Program-made: the position numbers and the translations under genes
Shown: positions 1 to 39,741 of the stretch, in pieces
Position numbering within the stretch: position 1 is the stretch's first letter
How the letters are laid out: every line of letters starts with the position of its first letter
The notes under the pieces: model-generated
What the model was told of the DNA's origin: nothing
Database searches by the model: none
The model's input: the letters and a program-made list of their open reading frames with translations, nothing else
Origin: Nemertoderma westbladi
Taxonomy: Eukaryota; Animalia; Xenacoelomorpha
Direction of reading: 5' to 3'
Assembly: GCA_032718475.1 (NCBI GenBank)
Contig: JAUCBJ010006512.1
Span: 1-52,670, forward strand
DNA length: 52,670 nucleotides

Positions 1-238
1 TAGTATATTACTGTGTTAGGCGGATAATTAACTGCATGGTGAGTTGATAGAATAATGATTAAAGTGTCTAAAGATGAATAAAAAAATTAATCTACCATTG
101 AAAACCATTAGACTATGGCAGTATGGCAGTATGGCGTCTTTCTACCACTGACTTGGGTTCCGGAAGAATTAATCAATCAGTCAGGTAGAACGTGATGCAT
201 TGGTTGACACCTGACAGGTAGGCCCACTGAGCCTTAGC

Positions 239-305
239 CAAGGCCTACTAAAAGTAATAACTCCTACTCTAATAACTCTAACTCTAACTCTTTTAGTATG
301 CCTTG
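239..305. mobile_element. 67-bp P-element-like MITE
   Basis: TIRs CAAGGCCTACTAAAAG / CTTTTAGTATGCCTTG (1 mismatch). 8-bp TSD GCCTTAGC at 231-238 and 306-313. CA(A/T)RG termini with an 8-bp TSD fit the P superfamily. Confidence 0.75.
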
Positions 306-605
306 GCCTTAGCCTAGCACCTAGCATCTGGCATCCACCACTACCAGACTACAGTATCCAAGCACTAACTGGAACATTACATTTTCACACACACGCTCAC
401 ACCAGTAGGCCTACATACTGACATAACAGCATAAGTACAGTTCAGAAGTTCTGCAAGTTATTTAGTTTGTGGGTGTTCACTTTCCTATTTTTAATGGTTC
501 AAATTTCCCGCTATAATGTTTCAACAATCTGATTCGATGATAACATTGGTGTGTGTGATAAAAGCTTTCTATTTGAACTACAACTGTCAAATTTCTTACT
601 TTTAG

Positions 606-787
606 CCGGGTTTAAACGATGACACAAAGTCTTATTACAAAGGTGAACTGAAAATTTCTCTGTGTTTCCAACCAAAGAAGAATACTGGATCCTTAACTGA
701 TTGGGGAAGTCTAATTGTTCACATCATGGAAGCAAAGAATATTACCGCTGCTCGAAGCAACAATTCATCAGATTCATTTGTCAAGGG
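606..787 (+). CDS. Exon of synaptotagmin-like protein (SYTL4/5, bitesize-like), start of C2B domain; gene extends 5' beyond the window
   Basis: tttag| acceptor and |gtaagt donor. Reads PGLNDDTKSYYKGELKISLCFQP...GSLIVHIMEAKNITAARSNNSSDSFVKG and joins in phase (GG+G) to the next exon. Confidence 0.85.
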
Positions 788-1184
788 GTAAGTTTGGTGA
801 ACCAATATACTGTACTTAGGGACTACCGGACGCCTCATTTTTTCTATGACGGGGTGCATGCATATTTTCTTCTATAATATTTTATTAGAAAAGTGAAATA
901 TTAAATATCTCCGTACCGTATGTACTGTAGTACAGGATGTACAGTACGTGGTATGATGAGACAGTTGAGACTAATAGACAAATAGGAGACTGTCAATCTT
1001 CAAAAGCACCTCCAGGAGCTAGGCTTCTTAGTCTTAGTTAATTATTTATCTTCCCTTTCAAGGTTTAATATATTATTACAACTATTGACGCATTTAACTT
1101 GACTGTAGTTCCAACCTTGTTTTCTATCAGTTTTGTTTCGAAAGTTCGGCAATTAACAAAATAATTTTCTGATCAATCTTTTAG

Positions 1185-1396
1185 GTATTTGCTACCGGAA
1201 CGATCGAAAGTATCCAAGAGAAAAACCCAAGTTGTTAAAAAGACATTGAATCCATCCTGGGATCATAAGTTCAACTACGATAACATGACACGTGGCGACA
1301 TGGTAGAACGTGTTCTAGAACTATCATTGTGGGACAGTGGTGACCGGTTTAGTAGTAACGACTTTCTGGGAGGATTAAGACTCGGCACAGGCGTAG
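1185..1396 (+). CDS. Exon of synaptotagmin-like protein, C2B core
   Basis: ttttag| acceptor and |gtaagc donor. YLLPERSKVSKRKTQVVKKTLNPSWDHKF...LELSLWDSGDRFSSNDFLGGLRLGTG is a typical Slp-family C2B. Confidence 0.9.
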
Positions 1397-1755
1397 GTAA
1401 GCTGATCACAGTGTAGTCGAGTTAATCAAGCATAAAACCACCTAAAAGTAAGTGGCAATCAATCCGAACCACATATTTGGAATTATTAGGTATTAGGCCT
1501 ACAGTACCTTAGTACCCTAATGCCCAAAAATGTATATAAAAATATTTTTATTTCCACTCCCTGGTTGTGTATGTAAGTTGTGTTAATAAGCTTCCTGTAC
1601 CAATAATTAAACTGATTAAATTATTAGAAAAAATGTCGTTCCTCTGGAATTTAAACTGAATTTGTAACTATTGAATATAGGCCTACTGTAGGAATGCATG
1701 ATATTGATTCATGATATTGTTGTCACTAATTAGTAGACCTGCGTGTACGATTTTA

Positions 1756-2208
1756 TCAATATTCACAATACCAAGGCAGTTCCACTCGATTGTCATCTCT
1801 ATCCTCCTCAACCTCCGCCCTGACCTGCCGTGTAACTTTGTCCTGAAGAGATACGACTTTCTTTACTAAACCATCGAGAAGGTTGGATCTCACCGCTGTG
1901 TGGGCCGGCTCGCGACAAGATGGACAACTCCGCTCTCGTTTCAACCAGACCGCCACACAATGACGACAGAACGAATGTGAACAGCTGAGATGCACCGGCT
2001 CAATTAACACCTCCAAACAAATGGAACATTCCAACTCCCTCTCGAGGTCTAGAAACATCACGACTTCTTCCGACGACATACTTTTAGTATTTATATTCCC
2101 TCCATCGCTAGATTTTTTCAACTTTAAACTATCTTTCTTTTCTACTTTTGCTTTAGGTTCCCCTCCACTATCATCAAGCTTAGAATTCCCCTTTCGTTTT
2201 CGGTTCAT
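1756..2208 (-). CDS. Intronless C3HC4 RING-finger protein resembling the C-terminus of RNF8 (no FHA domain)
   Basis: LERELECSIC...LSCSHSFCRHC...W...CPSCR followed by SNLLDGLVKKVV, similar to the RNF8 RING and its following helix. Basic N-terminus; AATAAA on the minus strand near 1547-1552. Confidence 0.75.
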   Translation of the reverse strand: MNRKRKGNSKLDDSGGEPKAKVEKKDSLKLKKSSDGGNINTKSMSSEEVVMFLDLERELECSICLEVLIEPVHLSCSHSFCRHCVAVWLKRERSCPSCREPAHTAVRSNLLDGLVKKVVSLQDKVTRQVRAEVEEDRDDNRVELPWYCEY

Positions 2209-2509
2209 TTTATATTTAATTATTATAACTATAAATTAGTATCATATGTTGGTAACAGTTCCGTTTGTATTAACATTTTGTTAAAAAAATTGCATGCTAG
2301 CTAGTTTTTGCTAGATTTTTAATGTATTCTAGAAGATGTTAGCTATTCATTTTAAAAATGATCTAGAATAAATATTTTTTGTTTTGAACATTTCCGTATG
2401 TTGTATAAGGTTAAGAAAAAAAACGCATAATACATTTTATTTATTGTAAGTCACTTTTTTTTGTCAAAGTCGTTAACAAGTTCGACAAAAAAAGAAAACT
2501 TTTTTGTCT

Positions 2510-4143
2510 ACAGTAATTATTTATTGCATGGGAAAAAAAGTATAACTTTTTTTTCACTATTCACAACGAGGTTAATATAGGGTCGAGAGAATATTGAAAA
2601 AAAATTGTTCTACGTTTTTTTTCCCCATGTAATACGTAATTTTATTCTTAAATTGATACTTTTTTGTTGCTTACTGTAATTCTTTATTAAAACGTACAGC
2701 GATATAGTGTTACAAAATAAATTGAACTGTGTAGTATTTTACTATATTGCTTCATAGTTTCAGCGATTCCAATTATTGTAGGCCTACTCTTCAACTCCTG
2801 GTGGTGCCTATCTCAATGTTAAATAATTTAGTATTCTCGAATAATTATTACGTAACTATGTAGAGAGCCGCTTAACAACATTAAACCAATATTGGATATT
2901 GAGTTTCGTTTTGGAGTACGTCTTGCAGACACTAAAGTTGCAATAACTTGTGAATGGATTTTACTCAAATTACGTGCAAACATGATGACAATCACAATCA
3001 AACAATCGATGCTCTTTCAACAGGATTTATGAAATTTAACAAAAAATATTTTATTTTACTTTTTTCGCCGGGAAAAAAATTAAAATCAATGCAATCCCTA
3101 TGTGTTACTTTTTTCCATAGGGAAAAAAAGTTAACTTTTTCCCCCGATTTTGGGGTAAATTCGAGTGAAAAGGTAACAATAAAAAAAGTAATGTTGAATT
3201 AAATTTCAAAGTAATTTCCATGACATTGATTTTGTCACTGGTTAAAATACAGGGGACCCTCCTGAATGCAGACAGCATTCAGAAGCAAATACTATTTTAT
3301 GTCTTGCTTTATATATATCGCTCGCAAAAAAGTCTACATTTTTGCCACCACTTAAATAGTTAGGCATTGGTACACATTGGGTACCCATAGGTATTGTTTT
3401 TTCATGTTAGTTTGTTTCTAAATGCTACTTGCTAACTGCTTTTAAAATAGGCACTAGGGCCCACAGCAGTACGATATGTGACTAATTGTTACGGAATATT
3501 ATGCAACAGTTAAATTATAATATATCAATGTTTTCACAAATTTTATTATTTCAAAATATACAGCTAGTAAAAGTAGCCCATATTTTATGCTTGTAGAATT
3601 GTGTAACATTCATGGCACCGTTTTGTTGGGTAGGTTTTGTAACTAATTTTGAATTTTTTATAATTAGATAATTTTATGGTAATTGTTAGCTATAGCTAAC
3701 ACGTGTTCTATAACAATTATAAAAAATTAGCAAAAACTAGCTAGTATAAAAAATCAATGTCATGGAAATTACTTTGAAATTTAATTCAACATTACTTTAC
3801 AAAATAAATATTCGAGAACACTAAATTTTTTTAACGTTGAGTAAGGCAACATCGAGAAATGGAGAGCACAATAATCTTAATCGCAGTAACTATGGAAGCA
3901 ATATAGTAAAATACTGCAGTTCAATTTATTTTGTAACACAACTGTACTGTAGTATATCGCTGTTATATTACATACTTTAGCAACAAAAAAGTACCTATTT
4001 AAGAATAAAATTACGTATTACATGGGAAAAAAAACCCTTTATTATCGACCCTTTATTAACCTCGCAGTCGCTCGGTAAATAAAATGCATCGAGTATAATG
4101 AAAAAAAGTTCTAGTTTTTTTACCATGTAATAAATAATTATTA
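2510..4143. repeat. Diverged inverted repeat arms (~2510-2845 vs ~3805-4143; 3184-3231 vs 3751-3798)
   Basis: Matching blocks in opposite orientation, e.g. CCCATGTAATACGTAATTTTATTCTTAAAT vs ATTTAAGAATAAAATTACGTATTACATGGG. A related stretch to ~2330-2390 recurs near 52450-52520. Confidence 0.7.
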
Positions 4144-4904
4144 GTTAACAAGTGTTATTTACAACCTTCATATAAACCATAACAAAAAATGAAAAAATCA
4201 TTTTAACCACCTAATTTAAAACTCACTGCATTGATTGGCCTATTTGTTGTTACAAATGATGTATACAGGGGGCGGGGGCTACAACACTTATCAAAAACAA
4301 AAATCAAGATTAATCTTTTTAACTATCTAATAAATAATCACTAACTAGCTCCAGAGTTGTTGCTATGCCGTAGATGAATTTAATTTAAGTAAAATGCGGA
4401 TCACTTTCAATTTTCTGTGTCTTTCCTTAGCAACATGGATTTTACATAGCAACAAATACAATTTTATTGACTTTTTTGGTCATTAACAAGGTAATAGAAT
4501 CCAAAATATGTGGTTCGGATTGATTGCCAAATATTGGGTTTTTTGCTTGATTGACTCTACTATTAATTTCATAATTTTATTTTTAAATTCTTAGGCCCCC
4601 CTTACACGGAGCAACTTGTTACTCTTTTGAACGAATTATACTCCAAAATCGGGAGAAAATTAGTAACAAATCCGCACGTAAATCAAACAAATTGGTTGAA
4701 AAAATTATGGAGTTGCATTTTGAGTAGCGCAAAACGAGAACTAATAATTCCGAGTAAAATGCATTTAAATTTAAACCTTCACGCGCAAAATTGCCAGTCT
4801 GTATCTAACTGCCGATATGTAATAATTATATAGTAATAATTAATAATAATAAGTATTTTATGAAAGGTATTTTAAGTTATTTAAGGAAGCAGACAGCTGC
4901 AATT

Positions 4905-5280
4905 TTCGTGGTCGGTTATTTAATTTCTGATATCAGTTTTCATTTTCATAATCTAGTCTACCTGGCTGTCTGTCAGAATGTCCGCTTGTCTGTTTGTTTG
5001 TACGACAAAATATAATAAAAAACACGACATGGCTAAAATTGCGCTATGGGGGTTTTCACGGTCGGTGATTTCATTTCCGACCACAGTTTTGTGGTCTGCT
5101 GTAACCTTGTGTGTCAATCTGGCTGTATGTTGGTCGGCCTGTCTGTTGGCATATACCAGTATACCTGCCAACATATATAAAGACACGACCTTGCTAAAAC
5201 TTTCAGTGTGGTATTTTGAGGTCGCTGATTTCACTACCGATGTCAGTTTTGAAGATGGTAGTTTGTCTGTTTGTCGGGAA
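4905..5280. repeat. ~2.5 diverged copies of a ~155-bp tandem unit (possibly Helitron/Helentron-type internal repeats)
   Basis: A GGTCG(G/C)T(T/G)ATTT..CAGTTTT block recurs near 4910, 5060 and 5220; ACACGAC..GCTAAAA recurs near 5022 and 5183. The family assignment is inference. Confidence 0.5.
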
Positions 5281-5566
5281 ACACATTTTTTTCAATATGT
5301 AATAATTGAAAATAAATATCATTTCCGATAACAAATATGCCTACAATTTAGATGATTATGGCATTGTAAATAGAAAATTAGAAAATAAATATTTTCTCAA
5401 CCCCGTTGGCCGTTTCAGATATTTATTCAGATACAGACTATTATATTCAAATCACATATAGAAATAATTGCACTTAATAAAAATAAATCACAATCTTAAT
5501 ATGAAGATATCTCAGCTATTAATACAAGGACCACAAGACAATAAATATTCAAATAATAGTTGAATC

Positions 5567-7240
5567 TTAGCTGGAACCCTCAGCTGAGAAGCTAAGTACG
5601 GGAATCTTATACCGTTCGCGGGGCTGTTGGTTCCGCTCGTTGGAGCCACCCAGCTGATCCCCATACAAGCGACGCATCTCCGATTTGAGTCTCTCCAACG
5701 TCTGTCCGGGATTGCTGCCAACCCCCTCGAGGTCCCCCCCACTCCGCCCCCCGACGTCCCCCCCACCCCGCCCCCCGACGTCCCCCCCACCCCGCCCCCT
5801 GACGTCCCCCTTGCCCCCCGTCTCGGACGAGGGGGACGACACATTGTACATTCGTAACAATTGGCCGTAGAACTCCAACTTTGGGTGGAACACCGCTAAT
5901 AGTTTCTGCGCCGCCGAGTTCTTAGCGATGCGTTTATTCTTCCCCGTTGCCACCGCAGTCTGCCCCCCATATACCGTTGTAACGCGCCACAGTTTTTTGC
6001 GACCCTCAGTGAGCACACGACACGAGACATCCAAGGTTGTGTCTCCCAATAGGAATTCGTGATTGTTAACGAAAATCCGCAGAAGACCCGAAGGTTGGAC
6101 GACATTCTTAGCTGAGCAAAATGAATCGAGCCGCGGTTCGGTGATGGCGACGGAATCGAAGTAACTCCGCGCGTCCGTGGAACCCTGCATGGCATTCCAG
6201 ACCTCGGGAGCCAGCAGAGACAGCGCTCGGTTGGCCGCGTTCGTTTTAGCCGCGCGTTTCGACTCCCCGATATCGCAGATATCATCAGCGCCGTTCGCGA
6301 ATATGACGGTGCAACGGAAGGGGTTCTCGTCGGAAGAATCCCCTGAGAGTTCCGTCTTTAACGTCATTGTCGTTCCCATGGCGGCCGCCACGAACTCAGT
6401 AAGAATCGCCGTTGGCAACCGATTCTTAACCAATAAGGTTTTCTGTTTGCGGAATTTCTCTCCGGTCGTTGGGTTTACTGACTCCGTTACCAACTCGAGT
6501 TTGTTCGTCGTAGAATCATAAACCGTTGTCGACTTGACTACTGTATCGTCTTCTCGCTTTCGCTTCTGCGGGCATTGGGACCAATCCCGTTGTTTACATT
6601 TATATGTGGTTTCGGTGAATTTGAATCGCTTATCGATGTAATCTTCGACTTCTTGTTTACCGAATTTGGTTTCCTCCTCACGGAATATCCGCACGGATTG
6701 TTGATTGGACTCGCTGCCCTGGGGGAAGGCACTCTCCTCCGCCTGTTTGTACTGCAGACACGGGATAGCCTGTTTGGGAACCAGGTGCGATTTCATTCCA
6801 ATATCCGGTTCTAAGGAATAGGGTCGGGACCAAGTAAGAACCCGTGAGTCGACATGCAAGTACATTGGCATCCCGCACTGGTGGTAAACCAATCGCCAAC
6901 CGGGTGGCAGACGACAGCTCGCTGTCATTCCGTCCATTTCCTTCAATTTCTTCACAGTTCGCGTCACGAAAACAATATCCTCTTTCTCGGCGGATGTTTT
7001 GCCGTTCTCGGTATTTGTAGCAACATTAGTGTTATTTGAGTCTCCATCGTTACCAATAATGCCTTCTTCGCTAACTGCCTCTAACTCGTCATCATCGCTA
7101 CTGATATCATTGTCTTCTTCGTCGTCAGCTTCAATTGGGGACATATTGCTAGCTGCATCAGGATTGCTAGCTGCATCAGGAACATCAGACTGTGGCCAAT
7201 CCATGCACGGGTCAGATTCCGAAGGATTATCAACATCCAT
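5567..7240 (-). CDS. DGCR8: Intronless DGCR8/Pasha homolog (Microprocessor subunit): WW/Rhed heme domain, two dsRBDs, C-terminal Drosha-binding helix
   Basis: LPPGWRLVYHQCGMPMYLHVDSRVLTWSRPY...IPCLQY matches the DGCR8 WW and IPCL heme motif. dsRBD1 SKRAAKTNAA; dsRBD2 KNKRIAKNSAAQKLLAVFHP...GQLLRMY; CTT-like TLERLKSEMRRL. In-frame stop just upstream of the ATG; AATAAA on minus at 5422-5427. Confidence 0.9.
   Translation of the reverse strand: MDVDNPSESDPCMDWPQSDVPDAASNPDAASNMSPIEADDEEDNDISSDDDELEAVSEEGIIGNDGDSNNTNVATNTENGKTSAEKEDIVFVTRTVKKLKEMDGMTASCRLPPGWRLVYHQCGMPMYLHVDSRVLTWSRPYSLEPDIGMKSHLVPKQAIPCLQYKQAEESAFPQGSESNQQSVRIFREEETKFGKQEVEDYIDKRFKFTETTYKCKQRDWSQCPQKRKREDDTVVKSTTVYDSTTNKLELVTESVNPTTGEKFRKQKTLLVKNRLPTAILTEFVAAAMGTTMTLKTELSGDSSDENPFRCTVIFANGADDICDIGESKRAAKTNAANRALSLLAPEVWNAMQGSTDARSYFDSVAITEPRLDSFCSAKNVVQPSGLLRIFVNNHEFLLGDTTLDVSCRVLTEGRKKLWRVTTVYGGQTAVATGKNKRIAKNSAAQKLLAVFHPKLEFYGQLLRMYNVSSPSSETGGKGDVRGRGGGDVGGRGGGDVGGRSGGDLEGVGSNPGQTLERLKSEMRRLYGDQLGGSNERNQQPRERYKIPVLSFSAEGSS
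5732..5810. repeat. 24-bp GC-rich tandem repeat in the DGCR8 ORF encoding (GGDVGGRG)-like units
   Basis: About 3.3 copies of GTCCCCCCCACCCCGCCCCCCGAC, frame-preserving. Confidence 0.9.
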
Positions 7241-10200
7241 CTTAACTACGCTTAGCAGCTTAGTGTTTAACTAATGAAGAGCTGGAACAGTGGAACTGAG
7301 TACTACAGTACTATGCTACTATTGTACTAGGATTACTATGCTGTAATGCAGTTATGTTATGGACCGTAATGCTCATCAAAACTTTATGATGATGGATACT
7401 TAGCTTAGCATGTATGTAGCAGTCTACTCTGTACTCTACATGCTACACTGACACGACACCTTACTGCTTTAACACACCGACACAGGGCGATTCGATTAGA
7501 TTAAGATATTTTGTTGTTACGACGCGGACGCATCATGGGTCCAGGGGCCTAAAACTCAACTATACACCAATAATCTCTACCTGTACGCGGTACACTCAGT
7601 ACGGTCAGACGGTTCAGTACACCTCAGTTCAGTACAGTCTGGATCTGGAACGATCTACTAGTCAAGTCAGTGTTAAAACAGTAAAAGTGCACCAATGTAT
7701 CTATCTATATCGAAAGTTTTAAGTATCAAGTAAAAAATTATTATATGGACCACGTTGATATCAGTTAATATTCATATTTGGCTGTCGTGTATACTGTATA
7801 TGTCATAAACACTAAAGGATATTTTAATTTCAACTTATATGCCCATTTCTATTGTAATTTTAAATTATTTGACCAACCTTAATTAAAGTATATATGTTAA
7901 ATTATTTTACTAATATTTTACTCCTGTATTTTATTTGATATTCTATTTGCATATTTCTTATTTTACATAACTTGCATGACCTAATATAATACGATATGTT
8001 CATAATCTATGCTTTTAATTTTTTAATAACTAATATTGTTTGTACCAGTGTTTTGTAATTTTTTTTTTTTATATTTTTTTTATTGTTTTTTTTTTAATTT
8101 TTAGTAATAGTTTTTTTAATTAATAATAAATAATAATAAATTTTAATAATTTTTAGTTAGTAATACGCCTTTTTTTAAATAATGCATGCTATTTGTACTT
8201 AACCTTTTTATATCATCTGCCCGGAAATATACATGGAAATTCATTATTTTTAATATTTTAAAACTACTCTGCACTGAAAAAAAAACGATATTGTACTTAA
8301 ATCTAATTTTATTTAACTTTACTAGCACTTTTTGACTAGCACCTTATGAATATCCGTCACCATCAGAATTTCCACTTAATTAACCTACTTTACTTACCGA
8401 ATTTTTATTTATTTGACCTATCCTTATTTTTAATTTTAATTTTGCCAACCTTTTACTTGTAGGCCTACATAATTAGCCAACCATTGGCTACAATTAATTG
8501 TGATGTGACATTGCATGCAATTCCAAATATTTATTTTTAATGATTTATTTTTAGTTGATGGTACAAATATGAAATTAACCCTAGACCTGTTGTAATCTGC
8601 TATCGTACTTGCAGTAGATCTATTTGCACATTTCGTACATAACCCAATATTTTTTAGAGGACCCCCATGGAGATGAGGATATGCCTCATGGGGCTATCCT
8701 ACGAGACATATTTGTCGTTTTATACCATAACATAACTGCAGTATATTTATCTCGTATCAATATTTATCATATCAATATATTTTAGATATGCTATATTTAC
8801 CGGTATAACCCATTTGGTTGTTGTATTACTGTACTGTTGTACAGTTGTTGTATAAACCAATATCAATATCTACAGAAGCCTGGAAGAAGAGCTCCTTTTT
8901 TTCTAGAGGCTACGCCTACCAACCAGTTGTACCTGTAAACATTGTACGTAGTACCCTGGGCCTACTGTAGCTGAATTTGATTAGAGATTCAATGTTCATT
9001 TTAAATTTCATTCGCCATGGAAATAAGTTCATCCAAGCGCATAATAAGAGTTCCAGTTAATGCTCAAAATTACCACAAACACAAACTATAACGGTACGTT
9101 TATTACACGCAGTCTGGTGGTGGGTTTAAAAATTTAGGAATCAAAGAATTAGGGTATGAAAGAAGTGTAACACTGTAACATATACTGTAAGGAATAAGGA
9201 ATATTTATTTTATTTAAGGAATGTGCAGATTTTGGAATACAATTGTATTCCTAAATAAGAAACCCAAGTCAAAAAGTTATTATTTAGGGACTTTTGGTAT
9301 TTATTTTCGATTTCGATATCTTAAATAAGGTAAATTTCAAAAATCCCCCTTATTTAGGAACTAGTCGTATTTTTGATGCAATTTTAAAACGCTTGTAGAA
9401 AAAAAACCGGACGGTGAAATGTTTTCTGGTTTTTTGCTTTATGTTCAAGAAAGACCCAACTTTTACATTGTGAAATAAAATTATGCGGTATTTTTTCCTG
9501 AAACAAGTTATTGCATATTATATCGAAAAAATATCCAAAAAAGGCCCAAAAACCCCTAAATAAGAGCCATTTTCCTTAAATAAGAACCCACTTTTGGAGC
9601 TCATTTAAGGGTATGTTCACAGCCGCATTAACTGCTGAACTGTATACCAGAGCAGAAACTAGACATTGCAGCATTGACAGATTGACATTTCAGCATTTAC
9701 CGCTTACCAGCACACCAGCATCTGAACTCCTGGTTGGTAGTTTGTTTGCAATGCTTGCGATTTTGAAATTCCCGCTGAAACCAATAGGCTTGGGGGGGGG
9801 GGGGGGGGGGTTAGTCGAATTTGGGCCAAAAAATTAAAAATTGTAAGAATATCCCATCTGAATCAGAATGTAAATGGTGATTCCAAATCTAAAAACAGTT
9901 TTTCATATCTTGTTTCGTTCACGAGATATCATGTGTGAAGTACGGGTAGTCTCTAATGTTGCGATATAACTATAAATCGCTAAATCGTATTCTCCCACTC
10001 CCGTGAATGACTGCGAACAACTACTGTGAATTAGAGTCACATAATAATGGATACTGTAATGAGTAGAATGCCAATACTTGTTATATGCACTAAAACATGG
10101 GTGCTGAATTCAAAAATAAATTCTAAAATATCTTACAATTGACACAAATATGATTTTCTTAGCAAATTTTTAGTTCGTCATTTTTCTTTCGTTGAAACTT

Positions 10201-11174
10201 TAAATATTATAATTAGTATGTGTAGGTAAGCTAGAAGTAACCTATTGATGTAATACTGTAATACACCCCCCCCCCCCCCCAGATTTTTCTACAAATCTTT
10301 ATCATATTGTTGGAAATTTGAAACACAACTACAGTAGTTCAACTCACCGTGGTTGTTACCATGAAGCCGGGATTTTCGATTTCGCCTTTAAATTGTATTT
10401 ATGAGCGTTTTAAAAAAGGTGTCTTTTGCGAAATCGCACCCTCTGTATCATTGCCATTCTTCACTTTAGTCGTAATTTTTTCACATCAATAGAAAGCTTG
10501 CGTTGAAAGGATTCCAAATATGTAGCAATATCTGAATTTCATTGAGAAACAGCACTGAAAATTCCCTTTAAAATGAGCCCTGAATGAGCTCTGTACGGAG
10601 GTAAAAAATGAATATTGTGAAACTTTTCCTCCGTTCTCCTGAAAAACTTAATTCCCCCAAAAACAATTATTCATACCCCAAATGCAATTTTTCAATCTCC
10701 CTAAAATAATTACTTGTCAACCAAAATAAATTCTTCCAGCACCAAATACAGTATTTTATGGAAAGTGTATTTATATGAATTCACTCATTATTTATTTAAA
10801 CCCTAAATTAAACTAAATTTTTAATCATATTATACCAACGATCAAAGACCAAAGATGCAATTATCCAATTATAAAGACCTACATAATCTTGTAACATATG
10901 TGTTAACCCAGTAACATTATTAACATAACATTGGTTCCCCCAACACGCCTCTTTAACCTGCTCCTTTACTAACCTGCTACTTTAAATGGCAATGCGACCT
11001 AACCCTCTTATGGCACCTGAAGCTCTTTGGGACCTAATGCGACTTTACCTCTTTCTTTGTACAGAACGGGCAGTAAAGTCTTGGGTCTTTGTTTTGTACT
11101 CACCCGACGATCCTCGTACCAATAGTCTGTAACTGAGATGAGAGTCTGTAACTAAGAGTCCGTTTATCTTGGTA

Positions 11175-11710
11175 GAATATTTGATTATTTTGGGGGAATA
11201 AGCATTTATTTTGGGGGAATACAGTATGTATTTATTTTGGGGAAAATATGTATTTATTTTGAGGGAATATGTATTTATTGTGGGGATTAAGTGTATATTT
11301 TGTCGGTTATTTATTAGTTATTTATTAAGTATATATTTATTTATGTATTATGTATTATTTTGGGGAAAAATGTATTTATTTTGGGAAAATTTATTTATTT
11401 TGGGAAAATTTGTATTTATTTTGGGGGGAAATGTATTTATTTTGGGAAAATTTGTATTTATTTTGGGAAAATTTGTATTTATTTTGGGAAAATTTGTATT
11501 TATTTTAGGGGATTTGTCATTTATTTTGGCGTGAATAATTGGTTTTGGGGAGCATTTATTTATTTTGGTGTTGAATAATTGTTTTGGAGTTTGAATAATT
11601 GTTTTTGGTGTGACTTTATTTTATTTGGTGTTGAATAATTTTTTGGGGTTACATTATTTCAATTGGTGTAATATAATTTTTTTGGTGAAATTTACATCAA
11701 TTTTGGTGTT
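11175..11710. repeat. 21-bp AT-rich minisatellite (TTTTGGGAAAATTTGTATTTA) with degenerate flanks
   Basis: Near-perfect copies at ~11360-11520. Inverted degenerate copies at ~10650-10750. Confidence 0.8.
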
Positions 11711-12085
11711 TAATTGGTAGCCATAATAAAATAATACGTCAATACGGAGTAGGGTCAATTTCTATAACACTTGAAAATAGAATTGATAAAATTCGAAATA
11801 TTTTTCGATTTTCTGCGTACATCAGACAATATTAATGGAATACCAAACTAGTAAAATGTAAAAATGTTTCTCATTAATCTGTTTAATCTGTTTAATTATT
11901 GTTTGTTAAACAAATAAAATTGTTAAAAATGTTATTATCACTCGTTGCGATCGTAAAACAAAGTGTCTTGTTCGAGTGGGAATAATATAGTATAGATACT
12001 GAAAATATAATGTTCTACATTATTTACCAGTCAGATAAATTATTATTATTTTGTTAACAATTCTTATTTATCATTTTATTTTCAG

Positions 12086-12297
12086 GTAAAAGTTATGGTT
12101 GCGTTGCTGAGTGGAACGACTCAATGGAGGATGAACGGTCGCTATGGCAACAGACTATAAACGGACCTGATGAGTGGCATGAAGGAAATTTATTGCTGCG
12201 AGATTCGCTGAAATGCCGCCCGTTGAGTACAGTGTGTCGTCATTCGTCGTCTGGGCAACCCAGCTCACCGCGGTCCCTGGATGGTGAGGAAGATTGA
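12086..12297 (+). CDS. Terminal coding exon of the synaptotagmin-like gene
   Basis: Polypyrimidine ttttcag| acceptor, phase-1 join to 1396. GKSYGCVAEWNDSMEDERSLWQQTINGPDEWHEGNLLLR resembles the SYTL4/5 C-terminal W-x-DS...E..LW...W.EG.L.LR motif; TGA at 12295-12297. Confidence 0.85.
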
Positions 12298-13642
12298 TAC
12301 AGCTCTCACTAGATCGGACTCATACAGTAGCAGACTTTACTCCCCCCATGAAACACAGAAGTCACCTGAAACTGAAGATTCATTTTCTTCTACTTTGGTG
12401 ATAATTTAACAATAGAAGTATTCATTATTATTATTAGTATTCATAATCAGTATCTAGGCCCTATTATGTTGACCTTTTAAGTTAACGCAGCAAATTTTTA
12501 AAAAAATTTGGCGTGGTCTGCCTTCGCCCTCCCATGTGAAACAATGTAACTAAAAATTTGGCAAAATTATATTATGGTATCATCTGAAACTAAAGACGAT
12601 TTCTATCAATTGATAAAGACTCAATAATGTATAGAGTCATATTGTAGATATTATCTAGCATGAAAATCAAACATAGGAGGCAGTTAAAGCCTGAAAAAGG
12701 AGCAAAAACATGCAACCCGGATGTTATACAGTAACAAGTAATTATATGAGTTTACCATATAACTGACAAGTTACATTCTTTTACCTTGGCTTTGGCATTA
12801 ATTCGGAGGGTATGACAGTCAATGTTAAGTAAGATGCCTAAACATCCTACACCTGACACGTCAGCACTGGTGTAGCCTGACTCACAAATCTTGTGCATTG
12901 TGCAACCCCAGCTACTGTAATTCATTTACTTTAGGATAATTTTACTAAAACTATGTTTTTTCAGATTTCAGTTACTTAGGACGCCAGTAACTGTATACAT
13001 AGTTACACCATGATCAAAATTCCACCTTTTATATTGTTGACTTATTGTATTCGTAACATCCTAGTAATATGATAATACAGTAAATCACTTACTAATGAAT
13101 TATTATGTAATTATTATGTATTTTACTATACAGTACCGTTAAGGCTACTGTTAATATTTATTACTTACAGTATTATTTTGTATTTATAACTCTAGCACGA
13201 TTATTTGTAGGCCTACAATGTAGAGCCTATAGATTTAAGACTATATTTTTATACAATCATGATTTCTTTTTTAACAATTTTTTATTATGATTTTAGCAAT
13301 CCATATTTTCGCATCACTACAGTATCAAGGATGATTACTGTATAAAATAAAAACTGTTGCTGTAGTGATACTTGATTGCTGAGACTTAATGTGCAGTATT
13401 GCACAAGTTGCAACTTTAGCTTGCAACTACCTTTAGGCCTACACTGTATATTGCCGCGAGTGTGAATACAAATAACTTGTATCAGCAGTAAATAATATTG
13501 AACGTCGCACATGTAATAAACTCCAGTTTTACAGTACGTAATTGAGTCAATTCTACAGGAAAGTGCCGCAATAGTGATTACTGTATTTAGTTAATAAATA
13601 GTGTAAAATATTTATTTAACTTATAATGTATTGAAACTCCGT

Positions 13643-14660
13643 AGACCTATGTAACAGGATGTAGGCCTATATAACAGGATGTAGGCCTATATAACAGGAT
13701 GTAGACCTATATTCAGTAACATGATGTAGGCCTACAGAACAGTATATACAGTAACAGGATGTAAGCATATATACAGTAACGTTATGTAGGCCTATATATA
13801 TAGATATGTTTTCTTTATTGCAGGCACAATATTGCCCATAAAAACCAAACACAACACAATAACAAATGATTAATTATACTAGAAAGGCATTACGTGGATT
13901 TATATATTTAGCACATGGTAAAATGTAGGTATATGTATGAGTAGGCCTAATGTATATTACTAGAAACGCGTTAAAAAATATATATAATAATTAATTAGTC
14001 GGTTATATACAGTAACATGATGTAGGCCTATATACAGTAACGATGTATGCCTATATAACAGGATGTAGGCCTATATAACAGGATGTAGGCCTATATATAG
14101 TAACAGGATGTAGGCCTATATATAGTAACAGGATGTAGGCCTATACAGTAACAGGATGTAGGCCTATATACAGTAACATGATGTAGGCCTATATAACAGG
14201 ATGTAGGCCTATATAACAGGATGTAGGCCTATATAACATGATGTAGGGCCTATATACAGTAACATGATGTAGGCCTATATACAGTAACATGATGTAGGCC
14301 TATATACAGTAACATGATGTAGGCCTATATAACGGGATGTACTGTTGGCCTATATACAATACATTAACAGGATGTAGGCCTATATAACAGGATGTAGGCC
14401 TATACAACAGGATGTACAGGCCTATACAACAGGATGTACAGGCCTATATAACAGGATGTAGGCCTATATAACAGGATGTAGGCCTATATAACAAGATGTA
14501 GGCCTATATAACAAGATGTAGGCCTATATAACAGGATGTAGGCCTATATAACAAGATGTAGGCCTATATAACAAGATGTAGGCCTATATAACAGGATGTA
14601 GGCCTATATACATAGTAACAGGATGTAGGCCTATATACAGTAACAGGATGTAGACCTATA
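13643..14660. repeat. 20/26-bp minisatellite (TAACAGGATGTAGGCCTATA +/- TACAG) in two blocks
   Basis: Tandem copies at ~13643-13800 and ~14004-14660. Confidence 0.9.
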
Positions 14661-15280
14661 TCGTCCCTTTTATTTTCAAACAACCTAAATGACAAAATTG
14701 ACTTTTCCTGTAAAACAGCATTATTGATTCTAATTTTGTTTGCAAGTAATACTCCAGGATTTTGGTCTTATTTACTTTTAAATACATTAAATGTAACGAA
14801 TTTAAACAATAATAGTTTTGGTATTGGAATTATGTAACATATTAGGTAGGAAACAATGTATAGGGATATACTGTAGGTTGTATAAAAAATTTTTTTTACA
14901 ATTATTACTCATAAAGCATTAAAATTCGATTATTAAGTTTTACAAATATAAAACAAATCTCCCCCTATCATAGTAAACAACAGTTCTACCTCCTGACTCG
15001 TTACCTATTTTATATCAACGTTTCCTGGCCTTACCTTATTTATAATAGTAAAATGTATTATATAGGTTGTTTTAAAAAAAAATTCGTTTCATTCGGTCTA
15101 TGTAAAACTTGCGTAGGTGGTTTTGAAAGGTTAAATATCTCAGTTATACGTGGGAGTATGGCTTTCTAAGTGTGTTAATCGGATTCAGAATACATTTTAA
15201 CATAAAGAAATGCAGAAATCACCATTTCGGCCAAAATGACATATTTTTTTCGTTTTTGTTTCAAAATGAAAGGGACGATA
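14659..15280. mobile_element. ~620-bp Tc1/mariner-type MITE
   Basis: TIRs TATCGTCCCTTTTATTTTCAAACAA / TTGTTTCAAAATGAAAGGGACGATA (2 mismatches), flanked by TA at 14657-58 and 15281-82. Confidence 0.7.
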
Positions 15281-16085
15281 TAATGAATAAGTTTGTAGGA
15301 TGTTTTTCTTTAATCGTCGGATGATAATGCTTTACTGTATACGGCGGGTTGTTTTCCAGTAGCTTGAACAGTACTGTAGAATAACGTAGTACTGTAACCT
15401 CATCCTTACGATTAATTAACTATCAACATTGAAAATTCGCAGAAGATGATGACATTAATTCTTATGCTTTCATATTTTTAGTAAGTTCAATATTTCTAAT
15501 TTCATCTTGTATTTGTCAGAACCGAACCAAAGGCCTTTCACAGTAACTGGTGGGCTTTTCGGTTGCGTTAATATTTTTTAGTGTAGAAATAACTTCACAT
15601 TTAAAGTAAAGTATACATATTATTCCATTTACAAGGTACTGTACAGGTTACATGTATTTTCTTATAGTTAATTTAATAGTTGCAAATATCTTCTAGTCAG
15701 ATTGGCATAAAGTATGTAAATTATGTTATGTGCATGTTGTATATTTTCCATAGCATTGTATAAAATACCATAGTTCGTTAATATTGTTCGAAATATCAAG
15801 TCCATGTTCATTTATAGTTGAAACGGGATGTTTAGTTACTTTTGTTTTATTTTCTTTTGTTTTCTTGTATTACTTTCTTTCCAACAATATTTATAGACAT
15901 ACAAAGTACAAAGTTTTTTTATAAATTATACAGTATGTTATAAAATAAATTATGTGCTACATGTATGTATTTTACGGTGGCCCAGAACGGCCAAGCAACT
16001 TTTTAAATGTGAAAGTGTCCTTTTCAGTGCTAAAGTGTTCTTTTTAGTGTGAAAATGATCTTTTCAGTGTGAAAATGTTCTTTTC

Positions 16086-16228
16086 AGTGTAAATTTGAAA
16101 GTGCGAAAGTGTAAATTTGAAAGTGCGAAAGTGTAAATTTGAAAGTGGGAAAGTGTAAATTTGAAAGTGCAAAAGTGTAAATTTGAAAGTGAGAAAGTAA
16201 ATTTGAAAGCGAGAAAGTGTAAATTTAA
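16086..16228. repeat. Left subterminal 22-bp array (~6 copies) of the IS3EU element
   Basis: AGTGCGAAAGTGTAAATTTGAA units, inverted relative to the right-hand array. Confidence 0.9.
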
Positions 16229-16421
16229 ATACGAATTATGGCGGGAAATTTAAATTCTGATGGGTAAGCCAGACCATGTGCTGTAAAGTATACATAGAGA
16301 GGCCTATCAACTGTACCGGTACATTTGGCAGTTACTAATACATAACATAAAACAGTAATATTATTGACATCCATCCGGCAGAATGCATCCGTACTAATGC
16401 GCTGTTGTGGTCTATTCTGTC

Positions 16422-17365
16422 ATGGCGGGATATGACGAAATCAAACTAAAAAATTATTTCCGTCAGGGTTTGACATGTGGAGATTGTAAAGATTATGCGG
16501 GTTAGAGAAAATGTCCAAATCAGTGCACGCACGATAAGAAGGCGTCTTAAAGACTTACATTTAGTACGCAGAAACCGTAACATTGACATTGACCAGATCA
16601 AAGCAGTGATGAGAAACATTATTCGTGGGTCGGGGTCCAGTTGGGGTTACCGTCATATGTGGCGCTATCTTAATAAGAAAGGGTTTCCTGTAACGCGTTC
16701 TACTGTCAGACTGGACAACTACTGCTAAAACTCTTGAACCCAGAAGCTACTGCATTACGCCAAAAACGGAAACTTAAACGAAGGATGTATTCCAACCGTG
16801 GTCCGAATGCAGCATGGCATACGGATGGGTACGACAAGTTGAAATCATATGGGTTCCCAATACATGGGTGTATAGATGGGTGGTCCCGATTTGTATTATG
16901 GTTGAAGGTTTGCCGTACAAATAATGACCCTAACGTTATTTGCAGATTTTATTTACCTACAGTAGTATTGCATGGATGTCCACTGAGACTTGATACGGAT
17001 CGGGGCACTGAGAATGGGGTTATGGCCGGGGCTCAATGTTTCTTTCGTCAATCATTGGGGGCCCATAAATACGTTGGTTCACCCCACAATCAGCGAATAG
17101 AATCGTGGTGGGCCTACTTGAGGAAGTCTTGGACTCAGTGGTGGATTACATTTTTTAATGAATTAATTGATAGTAATGAATACGACACAAATAATAGTAG
17201 ACATAAAGCTATTATGTGGTACTGCTTTGCTGATACCATACAGTTAGAACTCGATGATATTGCCGAGGACTGGAATAATCATATATTCGTAAGTCGCGCT
17301 TTAACACAATATCAGGGAAGCCTGTATGTAACTATTTCAATCCTTCCTGTAACGGCGGTGAAATT
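16422..17365 (+). pseudogene. Frameshifted IS3EU transposase (HTH + integrase core)
   Basis: MAGYDEIKLKNYFRQGLT / EIVKIM...ISARTIRRRL / RRMYSNRGPNAAWHTDGYDKLKSYGFPIHGCIDG...DTDRGTEN...NQRIESWW...WNNH / IRKSR...GKP..YF. Frameshifts near 16475, 16715 and 17285. Confidence 0.85.
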
Positions 17366-18219
17366 AACACTTTCTCGCTTTCAAATTTACACTTTCGCAC
17401 TTTCAAATTTACACTTTTGCACTTTCAAATTTACACTTTCGCACTTTCAAATTTACACTTTTGCACTTTCAAATTTACACTTTTGCACTTTCAAATTTAC
17501 ACTTTCCCACTTTCAAATTTACACTTTCTCGTTTTCAAATTTACACTTTCGCACTTTCAAATTTACACTTTCGCACTTTCAAATTTACACTTTCGCACTT
17601 TCAAATTTACACTTTCGCACTTTCAAATTTACACTTTTGCACTTTCAAATTTACACTTTCGCACTTTCAAATTTACACTTTCGCACTTTCAAATTTACAC
17701 TTTCGCACTTTCAAATTTACACTTTCGCACTTTCAAATTTACACTTTCGCACTTTCAAATTTACACTTTCGCACTTTCAAATTTACACTTTTGCACTTTC
17801 AAATTTACACTTTCGCACTTTCAAATTTACACTTTTGCACTTTCAAATTTACACTTTCCCACTTTCAAATTTACACTTTCTCGTTTTCAAATTTACACTT
17901 TCGCACTTTCAAATTTACACTTTCGCACTTTCAAATTTACACTTTCGCACTTTCAAATTTACACTTTCGCACTTTCAAATTTACACTTTTGCACTTTCAA
18001 ATTTACACTTTCGCACTTTCAAATTTACACTTTCGCACTTTCAAATTTACACTTTCGCACTTTCAAATTTACACTTTCGCACTTTCAAATTTACACTTTT
18101 GCACTTTCAAATTTACACTTTCGCACTTTCAAATTTACACTTTTGCACTTTCAAATTTACACTTTCCCACTTTCAAATTTACACTTTTGCATTTTCAAAT
18201 TTACACTTTCGCACTTTCA
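17362..18219. repeat. Right subterminal 22-bp array (~39 copies) of the IS3EU element
   Basis: TTCAAATTTACACTTTCGCACT tandem units. A variant pair recurs at 352-bp (16-unit) spacing. Confidence 0.95.
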
Positions 18220-18687
18220 CAATGAAAAGATAATTTTCACACTGAAAAGAACACTTTAGCACTGAAAAGTACACTTTCACATTTAAAAAGTTTCTTGGCC
18301 GTTCTGGGCCACCGTAGTATTTTATTAAATATGTAATTACTATTGTTTACTGTATCTTACAGAAGGCATTTTTCCATCGTAGACCAATCTGGAGAGTAAA
18401 ACGCAGGCCTAGGCCCTACGGGTATTTTAATTTAGTATATTGGATTTTCGTTAAATGCCATTGTGACGTAGATGATAAATATTTTTTCTCCTTAGCAACA
18501 TAAGGCCTACTTATATTCCATAGCAACAAAAGGTAATATTTTAACCTTATATTTTTTGTTTTAATGTGCATATATTATAATTATTGGAGTTAAACAAGTT
18601 AAAATAAATATACGTTCTATTTATTGCTCATGCAAAAATAGCTACTGATTTCAGTACAGTAAACAATATTACTAATTTATAATAAAT

Positions 18688-21600
18688 CCCCAATTACCAA
18701 CCCAATAATGTCCCTGTCCCAGAATCTTCTCGTAACCCCAATTACCAACCCTATAATGTCCCTGTCCCAGAATGTTCTCGTAACCCCAATTACCAACCCT
18801 ATAATGTCCCTGTCCCAGAATGTTCTCGTAACCCCAATTACCAACCTAATAATGTCCCTGTCCCAGAATCTTCTCGTAACCCCAATTACCATCCCAATAA
18901 TGCCCCTGTCCTAGAATGTCCTCGTATTTCAAATTACCAACCCAATAATGTTCCTGTCCTAGAATGTTCTCGTAACCCCAATTACCAACCCAGTAATGTC
19001 CCTGTCCTAGAATGTTCTCGTATCTCAAATTACCAACCCAATAATGTCCCTGTCCTAGAATGTTCTCGTATCTCAAATTACCAACCCAATAATGTCCCGG
19101 TCCCAGAATCTTCTCGTAAACCCAATTACCATCCCAATAATGTCCCTGTCCTAGAATGTTCTCGTATCTCAAATTACCAACCCAATAATGTCCCTGTCCC
19201 AGAATGTTCTCGTAACCCCAATTACCAACCCAATAATGTCCCTGTCCCAGAATGTTCTTGTAACCCCAATTACCAAACCAATAATGTCCCTGTCCCAGAA
19301 TGTTCTCGTAACCTCAATTACCAACCCAATAATGTCCCTGTCCTAGAATGTCCTCGTATTTCAAATTACCAACCCAATAATGTTCCTGTCCTAGAATGTT
19401 CTCGTAACCCCAATTACCAACCCAGTAATGTCCCTGTCCTAGAATGTTCTCGTATCTCAAATTACCAACCCAATAATGTCCCTGTCCTAGAATGTTCTCG
19501 TATCTCAAATTACCAACCCAATAATGTCCCGGTCCCAGAATCTTCTCGTAAACCCAATTACCATCCCAATAATGTCCCTGTCCTAGAATGTTCTCGTATC
19601 TCAAATTACCAACCCAATAATGTCCCTGTCCTAGAATGTTCTCGTATCTCAAATTACCAACCCAATAATGTCCCTGTCCCAGAATGTTCTCGTAACCCCA
19701 ATTACCAACCCAATAATGTCCCTGTCCCAGAATGTTCTCGTAACCCCAATTACCAACCCAATAATGTCCCTGTCCCAGAATCTTCTCGTAACCCCAATTT
19801 CCAACCCAATAATGTCCCTGTCCTAGAATTTTCTCGTATCTCAAATTACCAACCCAATAATGGCCCTGTCCCAGAATGTTCTCGTGACCCCAATTACCAA
19901 CCCAATAATGTCCCTGTCCCAGAATGTTCTCGTAACCCCAATTACCAACCCAATAATGTCCCTGTCCCAGAATATTCTCGTAACCCCAATTACCAACCCA
20001 ATAATGTCCCTGTCCCAGAATGTTCTCGTAACCCCAATTACCAACCTAATAATGTCCCTGTCCCAGAATCTTCTCGTAACCCCAATTACCATCCCAATAA
20101 TGTCCCTGTCCTAGAATGTCCTCGTATTTCAAATTACCAACCCAATAATGTTCCTGTCCTAGAATGTTCTCGTAACCCCAATTACCAACCCAGTAATGTC
20201 CCTGTCCTAGAATGTTCTCGTATCTCAAATTACCAACCCAATAATGTCCCTGTCCTAGAATGTTCTCGTATCTCAAATTACCAACCCAATAATGTCCCGG
20301 TCCCAGAATCTTCTCGTAAACCCAATTACCATCCCAATAATGTCCCTGTCCTAGAATGTTCTCGTATCTCAAATTACCAACCCAATAATGTTCCTGTCCT
20401 AGAATGTTCTCGTAACTCCAAATACCAACCCAATAATGTCCCTGTCCCAGAATGTTCTCGTAACCCCAATTACCAACCCAATAATGTCCCTGTCCCAGAA
20501 TGTTCTCGTAACCCCAATTACCAACCCAATAATGTCCATGTCCCAGAATGTTCTCGTAACCCCAATTACCAACCCAATAATGTCCCTGTCCCAGAATGTT
20601 CTCGTAACCCCAATTACCAACCCAATAATGTCCCTGTCCCAGAATGTTCTCGTAACCCCAATTGCCAACCCAATAATGTCCCTGTCCTAGAATGTTCTCG
20701 TAACGCAAATTATCAACCCAATAATGTCCCTGTCCTAGAATGTTCTCGTATCTCAAATTACCAACCCAATAATGTCCCTGTCCCAAAATGTTCTCGTAAC
20801 CCCAAATACCAACCCAATAATGCCCCTGTCCCAAAATGTTCTAGTAACCCCAAATACCAACCCAATAATGTCCCTGTCCTAGAATGTTCTCGTAACGCAA
20901 ATTATCAACCCAATAATGTCCCTGTCCTAGAATGTTCTCGTATCTCAAATTACCAACCCAATAATGTCCCTGTCCCAAAATGTTCTAGTAACCCCAAATA
21001 CCAACCCAATAATGCCCCTGTCCCAAAATGTTCTAGTAACCCCAAATACCAACCCAATAATGTCCCTGTCCTAGAATGTTCTCGTAACCCAAATTATCAA
21101 CCCAATAATGTTCCTGTCCCAGAATGTTCTCGTAACCCCAAATACCAACCCAATAATGCCCCTGTCCTAGAATGTTCTCGTAACCCAAATTATCAACCCA
21201 ATAATGTCCCTGTCCCAAAATGTTCTAGTAACCCCAAATACCAACCCAATAATGCCCCTGTCCCAAAATGTTCTAGTAACCCCAAATACCAACCCAATAA
21301 TGTCCCTGTCCCAAAATGTTCTCGTAACCCCAAATACCAACCCAATAATGTCCCTGTCCTAGAATGTTCTCGTAACCCCAATTACCAACCCAATAATGTC
21401 CCTGTCCCAAAATGTTCTAGTAACCCCAAATACCAACCCAATAATGCCCCTGTCCCAAAATGTTCTAGTAACCCCAAATACCAACCCAATAATGTCCCTG
21501 TCCCAGAATGTTCTCGTAACCCCAAATACCAACCCAATAATGTCCCTGTCCCAAAATGTTCTCGTAACCCCAAATACCAACCCAATAATGTCCCTGTCCT

Positions 21601-30403: not shown

Positions 30404-30422
30404 CCGCTCTCCTAATTTTTTC
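30404..30422 (-). promoter_or_regulatory. Polypurine tract (plus-strand primer)
   Basis: Minus strand reads GAAAAAATTAGGAGAGCGG immediately before the 3' LTR. Confidence 0.75.
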
Positions 30423-39686: not shown

Positions 39687-39700
39687 GTTCTGATTTTTAT
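39687..39700 (-). promoter_or_regulatory. Primer-binding-site position; complementary to the LTR itself rather than to a tRNA 3' end
   Basis: Minus strand ATAAAAATCAGAAC abuts the 5' LTR and has no TGG. It is a 14/14 complement of the LTR minus-strand sequence GTTCTGATTTTTAT (43098-43111; 30194-30207). Confidence 0.7.
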
Positions 39701-39741
39701 TATCACGGCGACTACCTCATACAGTCATATGCCAGTACTGC

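What the first reader, a model, noticed from the sequence alone, without database searches (positions are those of the whole stretch)
5567..7240. Intact, intronless DGCR8/Pasha nested antisense in a TE-filled intron
Seen: a 557-aa uninterrupted GC-rich ORF in AT-rich DNA. It keeps the WW motif, heme Cys (IPCL), both dsRBDs and the Drosha-binding helix, and has a polyA signal but no obvious poly(A) remnant or TSD. It is flanked by TE-like repeats. Known: DGCR8/Pasha is usually a single-copy, multi-exon gene, and Microprocessor can cleave structured TE RNAs. Inference: this is either the relocated real Pasha, a retained retrogene, or a divergent copy carried by a mobile element or virus that could retune or compete in miRNA and TE-RNA processing.
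Basis: partly seen in the sequence, partly recalled or inferred. Interest (0 to 1): 0.75.

Follow-up and report, generated by a model that had tools for sequence, protein, structure and literature searches.

The report
Intronless Pasha nested inside another gene
An invertebrate-type animal carries an intact, intron-free and unusually diverged gene for the microRNA-processing helper DGCR8/Pasha, lying backwards inside an intron of an unrelated gene; it is likely a working copy made from mRNA long ago, not cargo of a jumping element, and whether it replaced the original gene is untested.

Summary
7240-5567 (-) is one 557-aa frame homologous to DGCR8/Pasha. It lies antisense in the 10.7-kb last intron (1397-12085) of a synaptotagmin-like gene. 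WW core, Pro-Cys heme motif, UGU-reading Trp, both dsRBDs and the Drosha-binding helix are kept, though it is among the most diverged DGCR8s found (27% to frog). It is present and open in all four laid runs (up to three samples); 3 of 4 coding variants are silent, and the one coding indel is in frame. One RNA-like run holds a contig spanning just 5397-7285, so it is likely expressed. The cargo reading is not supported: no second copy at 85% or more, no terminal repeats or target duplication, no viral relative. Best reading: an old, working retrogene of the host. No genome was held, so the parent could not be sought: sole Pasha 0.45, diverged second copy 0.38. Intronless Pasha, duplicated Pasha and retrogene replacement all have precedents. 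A modest finding.

The parts
5567..7240 (-). Intronless DGCR8/Pasha ORF, 557 aa
6743..6913 (-). WW/dimerisation-heme segment, aa 110-166, with P160-C161 (human P351/C352)
   Evidence: function of P351/C352 from PMC6009577 passages
6575..6583 (-). W220-S221-Q222, aligned to human W461-A462-E463 (UGU reading); Trp kept, the other two changed
   Evidence: PMC7334207 section 8
6212..6415 (-). dsRBD1, aa 276-343; fold predicted, sequence the most diverged part
5888..6094 (-). dsRBD2, aa 383-451, with KNKRIAK
5723..5810 (-). 24-nt tandem repeat (3.7 copies) coding a Gly-rich linker before the tail helix; two units (48 nt, in frame) are skipped in run X4
5648..5710 (-). C-terminal tail helix aa 511-531 (predicted Drosha-binding)
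5422..5427 (-). AATAAA, 140 nt after the stop codon
5397..7285 (-). Span of the single 1841-nt contig of run X4, likely the transcript (strand inferred from the ORF)
606..787 (+). Host gene exon (synaptotagmin-like 4/5 type, start of C2B)
1185..1396 (+). Host gene exon (C2B core)
1397..12085 (+). Last coding intron of the host gene, 10,689 nt, GT..AG, filled with repeats and holding two antisense ORFs
12086..12297 (+). Last coding exon of the host gene
1756..2208 (-). Second intronless antisense ORF in the same intron: 150-aa RNF8-like RING protein without FHA domain
   Evidence: X4 contig 1641-2160
2509..4600 (.). High-copy nested inverted-repeat elements between the two ORFs (arms 2514-2855/3797-4140 and 3185-3233/3750-3798) and a further repeat from about 4394
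7900..11700 (.). Moderate- and high-copy repeats upstream of the gene

Best explanation
This is an intact, intron-free DGCR8/Pasha gene lying antisense in an intron of a synaptotagmin-like gene; it likely arose as a reverse-transcribed mRNA copy, is likely expressed, and is predicted to be the animal's working Microprocessor subunit, having likely replaced its intron-bearing parent. Shown: ORF, domains, nesting, presence in all four laid runs, no copy at 85% or more. Inferred mechanism: the copy landed in the intron long ago, took up a promoter in the 42%-GC stretch above 7285 and the AATAAA at 5427-5422, and lost its poly(A) and target duplication by decay. The protein would dimerise through the WW segment, bind heme through C161, read hairpin loops through W220, grip the stem with two dsRBDs and hold Drosha through helix 511-531. 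The repeats around it would be later, independent insertions into the intron.
For: Motifs: 45 of 59 columns conserved in at least 85% of 101 homologues are kept, including all invariant WW residues, P160/C161 and the L-x-x-L-x-x-x-M tail pattern. Constraint: the 4 listed coding variants among runs are 3 silent and 1 Ala-Val in the acidic N-tail; the only listed coding indel is an in-frame 48-nt skip, against 4 indels in 7299-7674 just upstream; small numbers. Two runs of one sample (X2, X3) carry different alleles, both with the gene. Expression (inferred, X4 is not on record as RNA): one X4 contig spans 5397-7285, from 45 nt above the ATG to 25 nt past AATAAA; X4 shows A>G plus T>C at 135 of 343 changed places against 65 of 277, 57 of 282 and 68 of 304 in X1-X3, and its longest record is 11.6 kb. 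No near copy: depth over 6001-7200 equals one contig in each of 4 runs at 85% likeness, with a trace extra in one X1 bin. Ancestral introns: 20 of 39 fetched loci show the gene split by extra sequence (GT..AG inspected only in L013; many may be few species); fly pasha has five exons (PMC3355041 passages). Precedent: DGCR8-like single ORFs keeping WW, IPC and KNK motifs in 157-kb and 76-kb contigs (L010, L012); retrogene replacement in amphioxus SYCP1 and 25 human genes (abstracts). Prior: other insects studied had one pasha (PMC2857804 passages).
Against: The parent could not be sought: no genome, and laying at 85% would miss an old paralogue. The protein is among the three rows least like frog DGCR8 of 99 (27%; end branch 1.47), while two host exons are 60% and 49% identical to fish Slp4 (41 of 68, 17 of 35): this gene-specific speed-up is what aphid pasha3/4 duplicates show. 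7 of the 14 lost conserved columns lie in or just before dsRBD1. In X1 the contigs over 4498-8207 have depth 10.3-11.4 against 20-28 for most flanking ones, as if one haplotype lacked the segment; the tool warns that depth is no copy number, and X2 and X3 of one sample disagree twofold elsewhere. No poly(A) or target duplication survives, so retroposition is inferred only from intron loss and nesting.
Confidence: 0.45

Rival explanations
1. A retained, diverged second copy: the same retrogene origin and the same working parts, but an intron-bearing parent survives elsewhere, and this copy has a narrower or altered role (tissue-limited, or other hairpin preference through its changed dsRBD1). 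It may be present in only some haplotypes.
For: Long branch beside ordinarily diverged host exons; losses clustered at dsRBD1 and W-A-E changed to W-S-Q followed by C-P for R-R; aphids keep four pasha genes, two of them accelerated (PMC2857804 passages); other long-branch DGCR8-like rows come from a butterfly and a bivalve, P0107 nested among shorter-branched rows (second copies there not verified); about half depth in X1 (weak).
Against: No joint across the segment in 4 runs at 97% (repeats at both borders could hide one); two alleles with the gene in one sample; all key motifs kept; fast single orthologues also occur (nematode and bryozoan rows).
Confidence: 0.38
2. The native gene that lost its introns in place or moved as DNA, with no retroposition to a new site.
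For: No poly(A) or target duplication; intronless DGCR8 also occurs in gene-dense contigs with intronless neighbours, and genome-wide intron loss is described in a mite (PMC7738191 passages).
Against: The host gene keeps introns at this very place, so there is no sign of general intron loss; a second intronless antisense ORF in the same intron fits a landing site for mRNA copies.
Confidence: 0.09
3. Cargo of a transposon or virus that would retune or compete in microRNA and TE-RNA processing.
For: Repeat-filled surroundings; high GC3 (0.59) and no CpG depletion; no close relative among 150 listed proteins; lower depth in X1.
Against: Single contig per run over the ORF; no terminal repeats around it; no transposase or viral gene in the intron among ORFs of 100 aa or more; 0 of 83 and 0 of 37 viral pattern matches for the two ORFs (pattern scans are insensitive); host exon as GC-rich.
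Confidence: 0.05
4. A young processed pseudogene that has not yet decayed.
For: Intronless and nested; expression is only inferred.
Against: A young copy needs a near-identical parent, and none is seen at 85%; variants are mostly silent and indels avoid the frame; GC3 0.59 in a 30%-GC intron.
Confidence: 0.03

Closest known systems
DGCR8/Pasha (human DGCR8, PDB 6V5B, 6LXD, 2YT4, 3LE4)
   Same: Order WW/heme segment, two dsRBDs, tail helix; P351/C352 and W461 equivalents kept.
   Different: No introns in the coding region; nested antisense; 27% identity in core columns; matches human only from about residue 244; short linker inside the heme domain; human C430 position not kept; Gly-rich repeat before the tail helix.
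Retrogene replacement ('orphan' retrogenes): amphioxus SYCP1 (PMC5803294, abstract), 25 human genes (PMC3548309, abstract)
   Same: Single coding exon at a new site, multi-exon homologues elsewhere, signs of constraint.
   Different: Loss of the parent is not shown here; those human genes are under strong purifying selection, while this protein is on a long branch.
Aphid pasha1-4 (PMC2857804, passages)
   Same: Domains kept, accelerated divergence in two copies.
   Different: Four copies in one genome; the word 'intron' or 'retro' does not occur in that main text; here only one copy is seen.
Intronless DGCR8 in loci L010 and L012; intron-poor mite genome with Pasha (PMC7738191, passages)
   Same: Whole DGCR8 coding region in one ORF.
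   Different: There the neighbours are intronless and packed, the proteins are not long-branched like this one (46-47% to amphioxus over the dsRBD half), and they are not nested. That these loci are mites is my guess, untested.
Nested genes (PMC4394429, passages)
   Same: Gene inside an intron on the opposite strand, unrelated to the host; about 10% of fly genes are nested, two-thirds of nested genes antisense.
   Different: None in kind.

Membership tests
DGCR8/Pasha | WW-containing dimerisation segment | tested here: met
   Match to 3LE4 and 4E5R at E 3e-12 and 4e-11; invariant L-P-x-x-W, H, G, Y, R-P-Y kept
DGCR8/Pasha | Heme-ligating Cys in I-P-C (human P351/C352) | tested here: met
   P160, C161; role from PMC6009577 passages. 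Heme binding itself not tested
DGCR8/Pasha | Two tandem dsRBDs | tested here: met
   Pfam dsrm, two stretches; model and fold search
DGCR8/Pasha | C-terminal tail helix that binds Drosha | tested here: met
   Sequence pattern and predicted helix 511-531; binding itself not tested
DGCR8/Pasha | UGU-reading residues 461-463 (W-A-E) | tested here: inconclusive
   W kept, A-E read S-Q, next R-R read C-P; these neighbours vary across homologues too
DGCR8/Pasha | Forms Microprocessor with Drosha and processes pri-miRNA | not testable with these tools
   Needs the host's Drosha and an assay
Retrogene | Coding region lacks the introns of homologues | tested here: met
   a 5' UTR intron is not excluded
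Retrogene | Poly(A) remnant and target-site duplication | tested here: not met
   these decay in old copies (own knowledge), so this lowers 'young retrocopy' more than 'old retrogene'
Retrogene | Lies away from the parental locus | not testable with these tools
   No genome, no relative's locus found
Orphan (replacement) retrogene | Intron-bearing parent is gone | tested here: inconclusive
   No copy at 85% or more in 4 runs; older paralogues would be missed
Transposon or viral cargo gene | Repeated together with its flanks | tested here: not met
Transposon or viral cargo gene | Bounded by terminal repeats or next to mobility or viral genes | tested here: not met

The most novel reading that the evidence does not exclude
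A second, fast-evolving Pasha with an altered first dsRBD and loop-reading patch, kept under selection yet present on only some haplotypes: animals would then differ in whether they can build a second kind of Microprocessor, with other hairpin preferences, possibly aimed at repeat-derived RNA.
Probability: 0.12. Interest if true: 0.62.

Novelty: new member of a known kind. Interest (0 to 1): 0.27.

Why it matters
As the sole Pasha, it is one more case of an essential gene surviving as a relocated intronless copy, and a natural variant showing how far DGCR8 can drift (27% identity) with its key residues kept: useful for annotation, since divergent nested genes are easily missed and the lineage could be scored as lacking Pasha. 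As a second copy, it would add to the few Pasha duplications in print and allow a test of whether two Microprocessors can sort different hairpins. Neither changes how the pathway is understood unless the presence/absence hint proves real.

Tried and rejected
Whole-genome search for a parent: no genome held. RNA holders: no RNA holder listed; this is no evidence either way. Parts without cover in X4: depth 0 at intron places 908-1063, 3494, 4243 and over 7399-8253 while host exons are covered; it fits an RNA run but a hole in contigs proves nothing, and no splice joint was among the 15 of 544 joints shown. Empty-site joint: none among the 3 joints at 97%; borders lie in repeats. Terminal repeats: the 32-nt inverted pair 1453-1484/4498-4529 brackets only the RING ORF, has no target duplication by eye and both arms lie in repeat-depth bins; rejected as element ends. 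Autoregulatory hairpin in the mRNA: 111 windows, best z -2.6, the longest stem (38 pairs, z -2.0) lies at 7480-7371 outside the X4 contig; nothing beyond chance. Rfam: 0 matches in 1-18700. Lineage: the tree gives no starred group holding the protein and joins it to a sponge row by long branches; organism left unnamed. RING protein relatives: 0 of 41 candidates. Protein atlas and complex prediction returned no result, so dimer and heme binding rest on sequence only. Earlier findings: 0 for DGCR8/Pasha, intronless or retrogene in this genome (78 windows). Print: the searches DGCR8+Pasha+intronless (2 papers), DGCR8 with retrogene terms (none of the 20 listed holds DGCR8), gene-structure terms and virus/transposon capture terms listed no paper whose title or abstract start describes an intronless, retroposed or element-borne Pasha; only listings were seen, and no supplements were read, where gene models of Pasha may stand.

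Full report
Observation. The minus strand holds one uninterrupted frame from ATG 7240 to the stop at 5567, 557 aa. It matches human DGCR8 at E 5e-32 in two stretches, 50-171 and 183-470. Of 8 hits in the word-based search, 7 are named DGCR8 and 1 is unnamed, at 24-31% identity. The full HMMER scan gave 284 proteins at E up to 0.001, none close (best E 2.5e-35); 8 of the top 10 carry names, from hemichordate, amphioxus, tunicate, mollusc, arthropod and tardigrade. The model shows two dsRBD folds and a tail helix, and its best six fold matches are DGCR8.

Setting. Exons at 606-787, 1185-1396 and 12086-12297 on plus code the C2B domain and end of a synaptotagmin-like 4/5 protein. Splice ends are GT..AG, so the intron is 1397-12085. 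It holds the DGCR8 ORF and a second intronless antisense ORF, a 150-aa RING protein closest to RNF8 (E 2e-16), with high-copy repeats between and around them. The ORF is 53% GC with GC3 0.59, the host exons 36%, 43% and 51%.

Function residues. I aligned the protein with 101 homologues (P0001-P0110 of at least 420 aa, 101 of 110). Of 59 columns conserved in at least 85% of them, 45 are kept; 9 of the 101 keep fewer. P160/C161 equal human P351/C352, needed for heme binding and dimerisation (PMC6009577, passages). W220 equals W461 of the UGU-reading W-A-E (PMC7334207, passages and section 8), but the next residues read S-Q-C-P. The tail helix keeps its hydrophobic pattern. Seven of the 14 losses lie at aa 270-323, in or before dsRBD1. 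In a tree of 99 rows (3 of 102 dropped as gappy; 347 columns) the protein has an end branch of 1.47 and no supported neighbour; its identity to frog DGCR8, 27%, is among the lowest three. Two host exons are 60% and 49% identical to fish Slp4, more than a sea-anemone homologue is (48%, 29%), so the speed-up looks gene-specific, on 103 residues and an uncertain comparator.

Other samples. Five listed runs of three studies hold the stretch; I laid four. At 85% likeness the depth over 6001-7200 is that of one contig per run, with a trace extra in one bin, while flanking repeats reach hundreds to tens of thousands. So no near-identical copy or young parent is seen, and the gene does not travel with the repeats. 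At 97% over 4150-9250 the ORF shows 4 variants, 3 silent and one Ala55Val, and one in-frame 48-nt skip in the Gly-rich repeat; four indels lie in 7299-7674 upstream. X2 and X3, one sample, carry different alleles, both with the gene. X1 may be the source of the window and is not independent.

Expression. No run is on record as RNA. X4 nonetheless behaves like one: a single 1841-nt contig spans 5397-7285, ending 25 nt past the only AATAAA in 5301-5600; another spans 1641-2160 on the RING ORF; A>G plus T>C changes make up 135 of 343 places against 20-23% in the other three; its longest record is 11.6 kb. Contigs cannot show strand, ends or level, so expression is likely, not shown. The contig begins at CCAG of a possible splice acceptor, so an upstream non-coding exon is not excluded.

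A result against the simple reading. In X1 the contigs from 4498 to 8207 have depth 10.3-11.4, against 23.3, 20.3, 20.9, 19.2 and 28.2 for flanking ones and 14.5 next to the left border; GC does not explain it (38% against 37%). X2 gives 22-27 against 24-36, X3 20-34 against 34-74. This could mean a haplotype without the segment, but the tool warns that these depths are no copy number, X2 and X3 differ twofold from each other at 403-2283, and no joint skips the segment. I keep it as a weak hint.

Origin. Of 39 loci from metagenome contigs, 20 show the gene split by 60 or more extra bases, 11 show it unsplit over more than 250 aa and 8 give one short piece. Nine of the 11 are contigs of 1.7-5.2 kb that may be transcripts; two, L010 and L012, lie in 157-kb and 76-kb contigs among intronless neighbours. 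So introns are the usual state and intronless DGCR8 exists elsewhere. Here the host gene keeps its introns, which favours a retroposed copy over general intron loss. Poly(A) and target duplication are absent, as expected for an old copy (own knowledge). No terminal repeats bracket the gene, and no relative was found in viral contigs (0 of 83).

Mechanism and odds. Shown: ORF, domains, nesting, presence in all laid runs, single copy at 85%. Inferred: retroposition, expression, Microprocessor function. Untested: whether a parent survives (no genome). I give 0.45 to the sole working Pasha, 0.38 to a diverged second copy, 0.09 to intron loss in place or a DNA move, 0.05 to element cargo and 0.03 to a young pseudogene. 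The first two share the same anatomy, so 'working host gene' stands at about 0.9.

Against what is known. Four pasha genes, two accelerated, are described in the pea aphid (PMC2857804, passages) and a partial duplicate in a fly (PMC3355041, passages). Retrogene replacement is described for amphioxus SYCP1 and 25 human genes (abstracts only). Nested antisense genes are common (PMC4394429, passages). That Microprocessor acts on retrotransposon RNA I saw only as search listings. Four searches listed no paper on an intronless, retroposed or element-borne Pasha; supplements were not read. Verdict: a real, unusual but ordinary-in-kind gene; new member of a known family; interest 0.27.

Noticed in passing
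window 1756-2208 (-): Second intronless antisense ORF in the same intron: RNF8-like RING with a basic N-terminus and no FHA domain; covered by an X4 contig (1641-2160); no close relative found.
   Followed up: partly
window 29683-43307: BEL/Pao LTR retrotransposon with LTRs 29683-30403 and 42590-43307, 99.4% identical over 721 nt, inserted in a 48-bp satellite; an extra 481-aa ORF without Pfam match lies before gag-pol.
   Followed up: no
window 18688-29649 and 43307-47124: 48-bp satellite (229 and 80 copies) with strong strand skew and long stop-free frames.
   Followed up: no
window 15973-18316: Element with inverted ends (90% over 259 nt) built from a 22-bp repeat, coding an HTH_21 piece and an rva_4 integrase core; resembles IS3-like eukaryotic DNA transposons (name recalled, not tested).
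   Followed up: no
window 4498-8207: About half contig depth in run X1 across the segment holding the gene; unexplained.
   Followed up: partly
window 7281-7292 (-): The X4 contig starts at CCAG of a pyrimidine-rich CAG, a possible splice acceptor 41 nt above the ATG; an upstream non-coding exon may exist.
   Followed up: no
L010:4884-6365 and L012:4716-6221: Genomic intronless DGCR8 genes in gene-dense contigs that share two neighbouring genes by eye; L010 has an intronless coatomer beta gene, L012 a hAT-derived ORF.
   Followed up: partly
proteins P0107 and P0073: Long-branch DGCR8-like proteins from a butterfly (the I-P-C cysteine reads Tyr) and a bivalve (with a tail that looks like a transposase piece, recalled, not tested); possible diverged second copies.
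   Followed up: no
window 50700-51850: GC-rich stretch (about 52%) with several short open frames and no Pfam match in 6 frames tested.
   Followed up: partly
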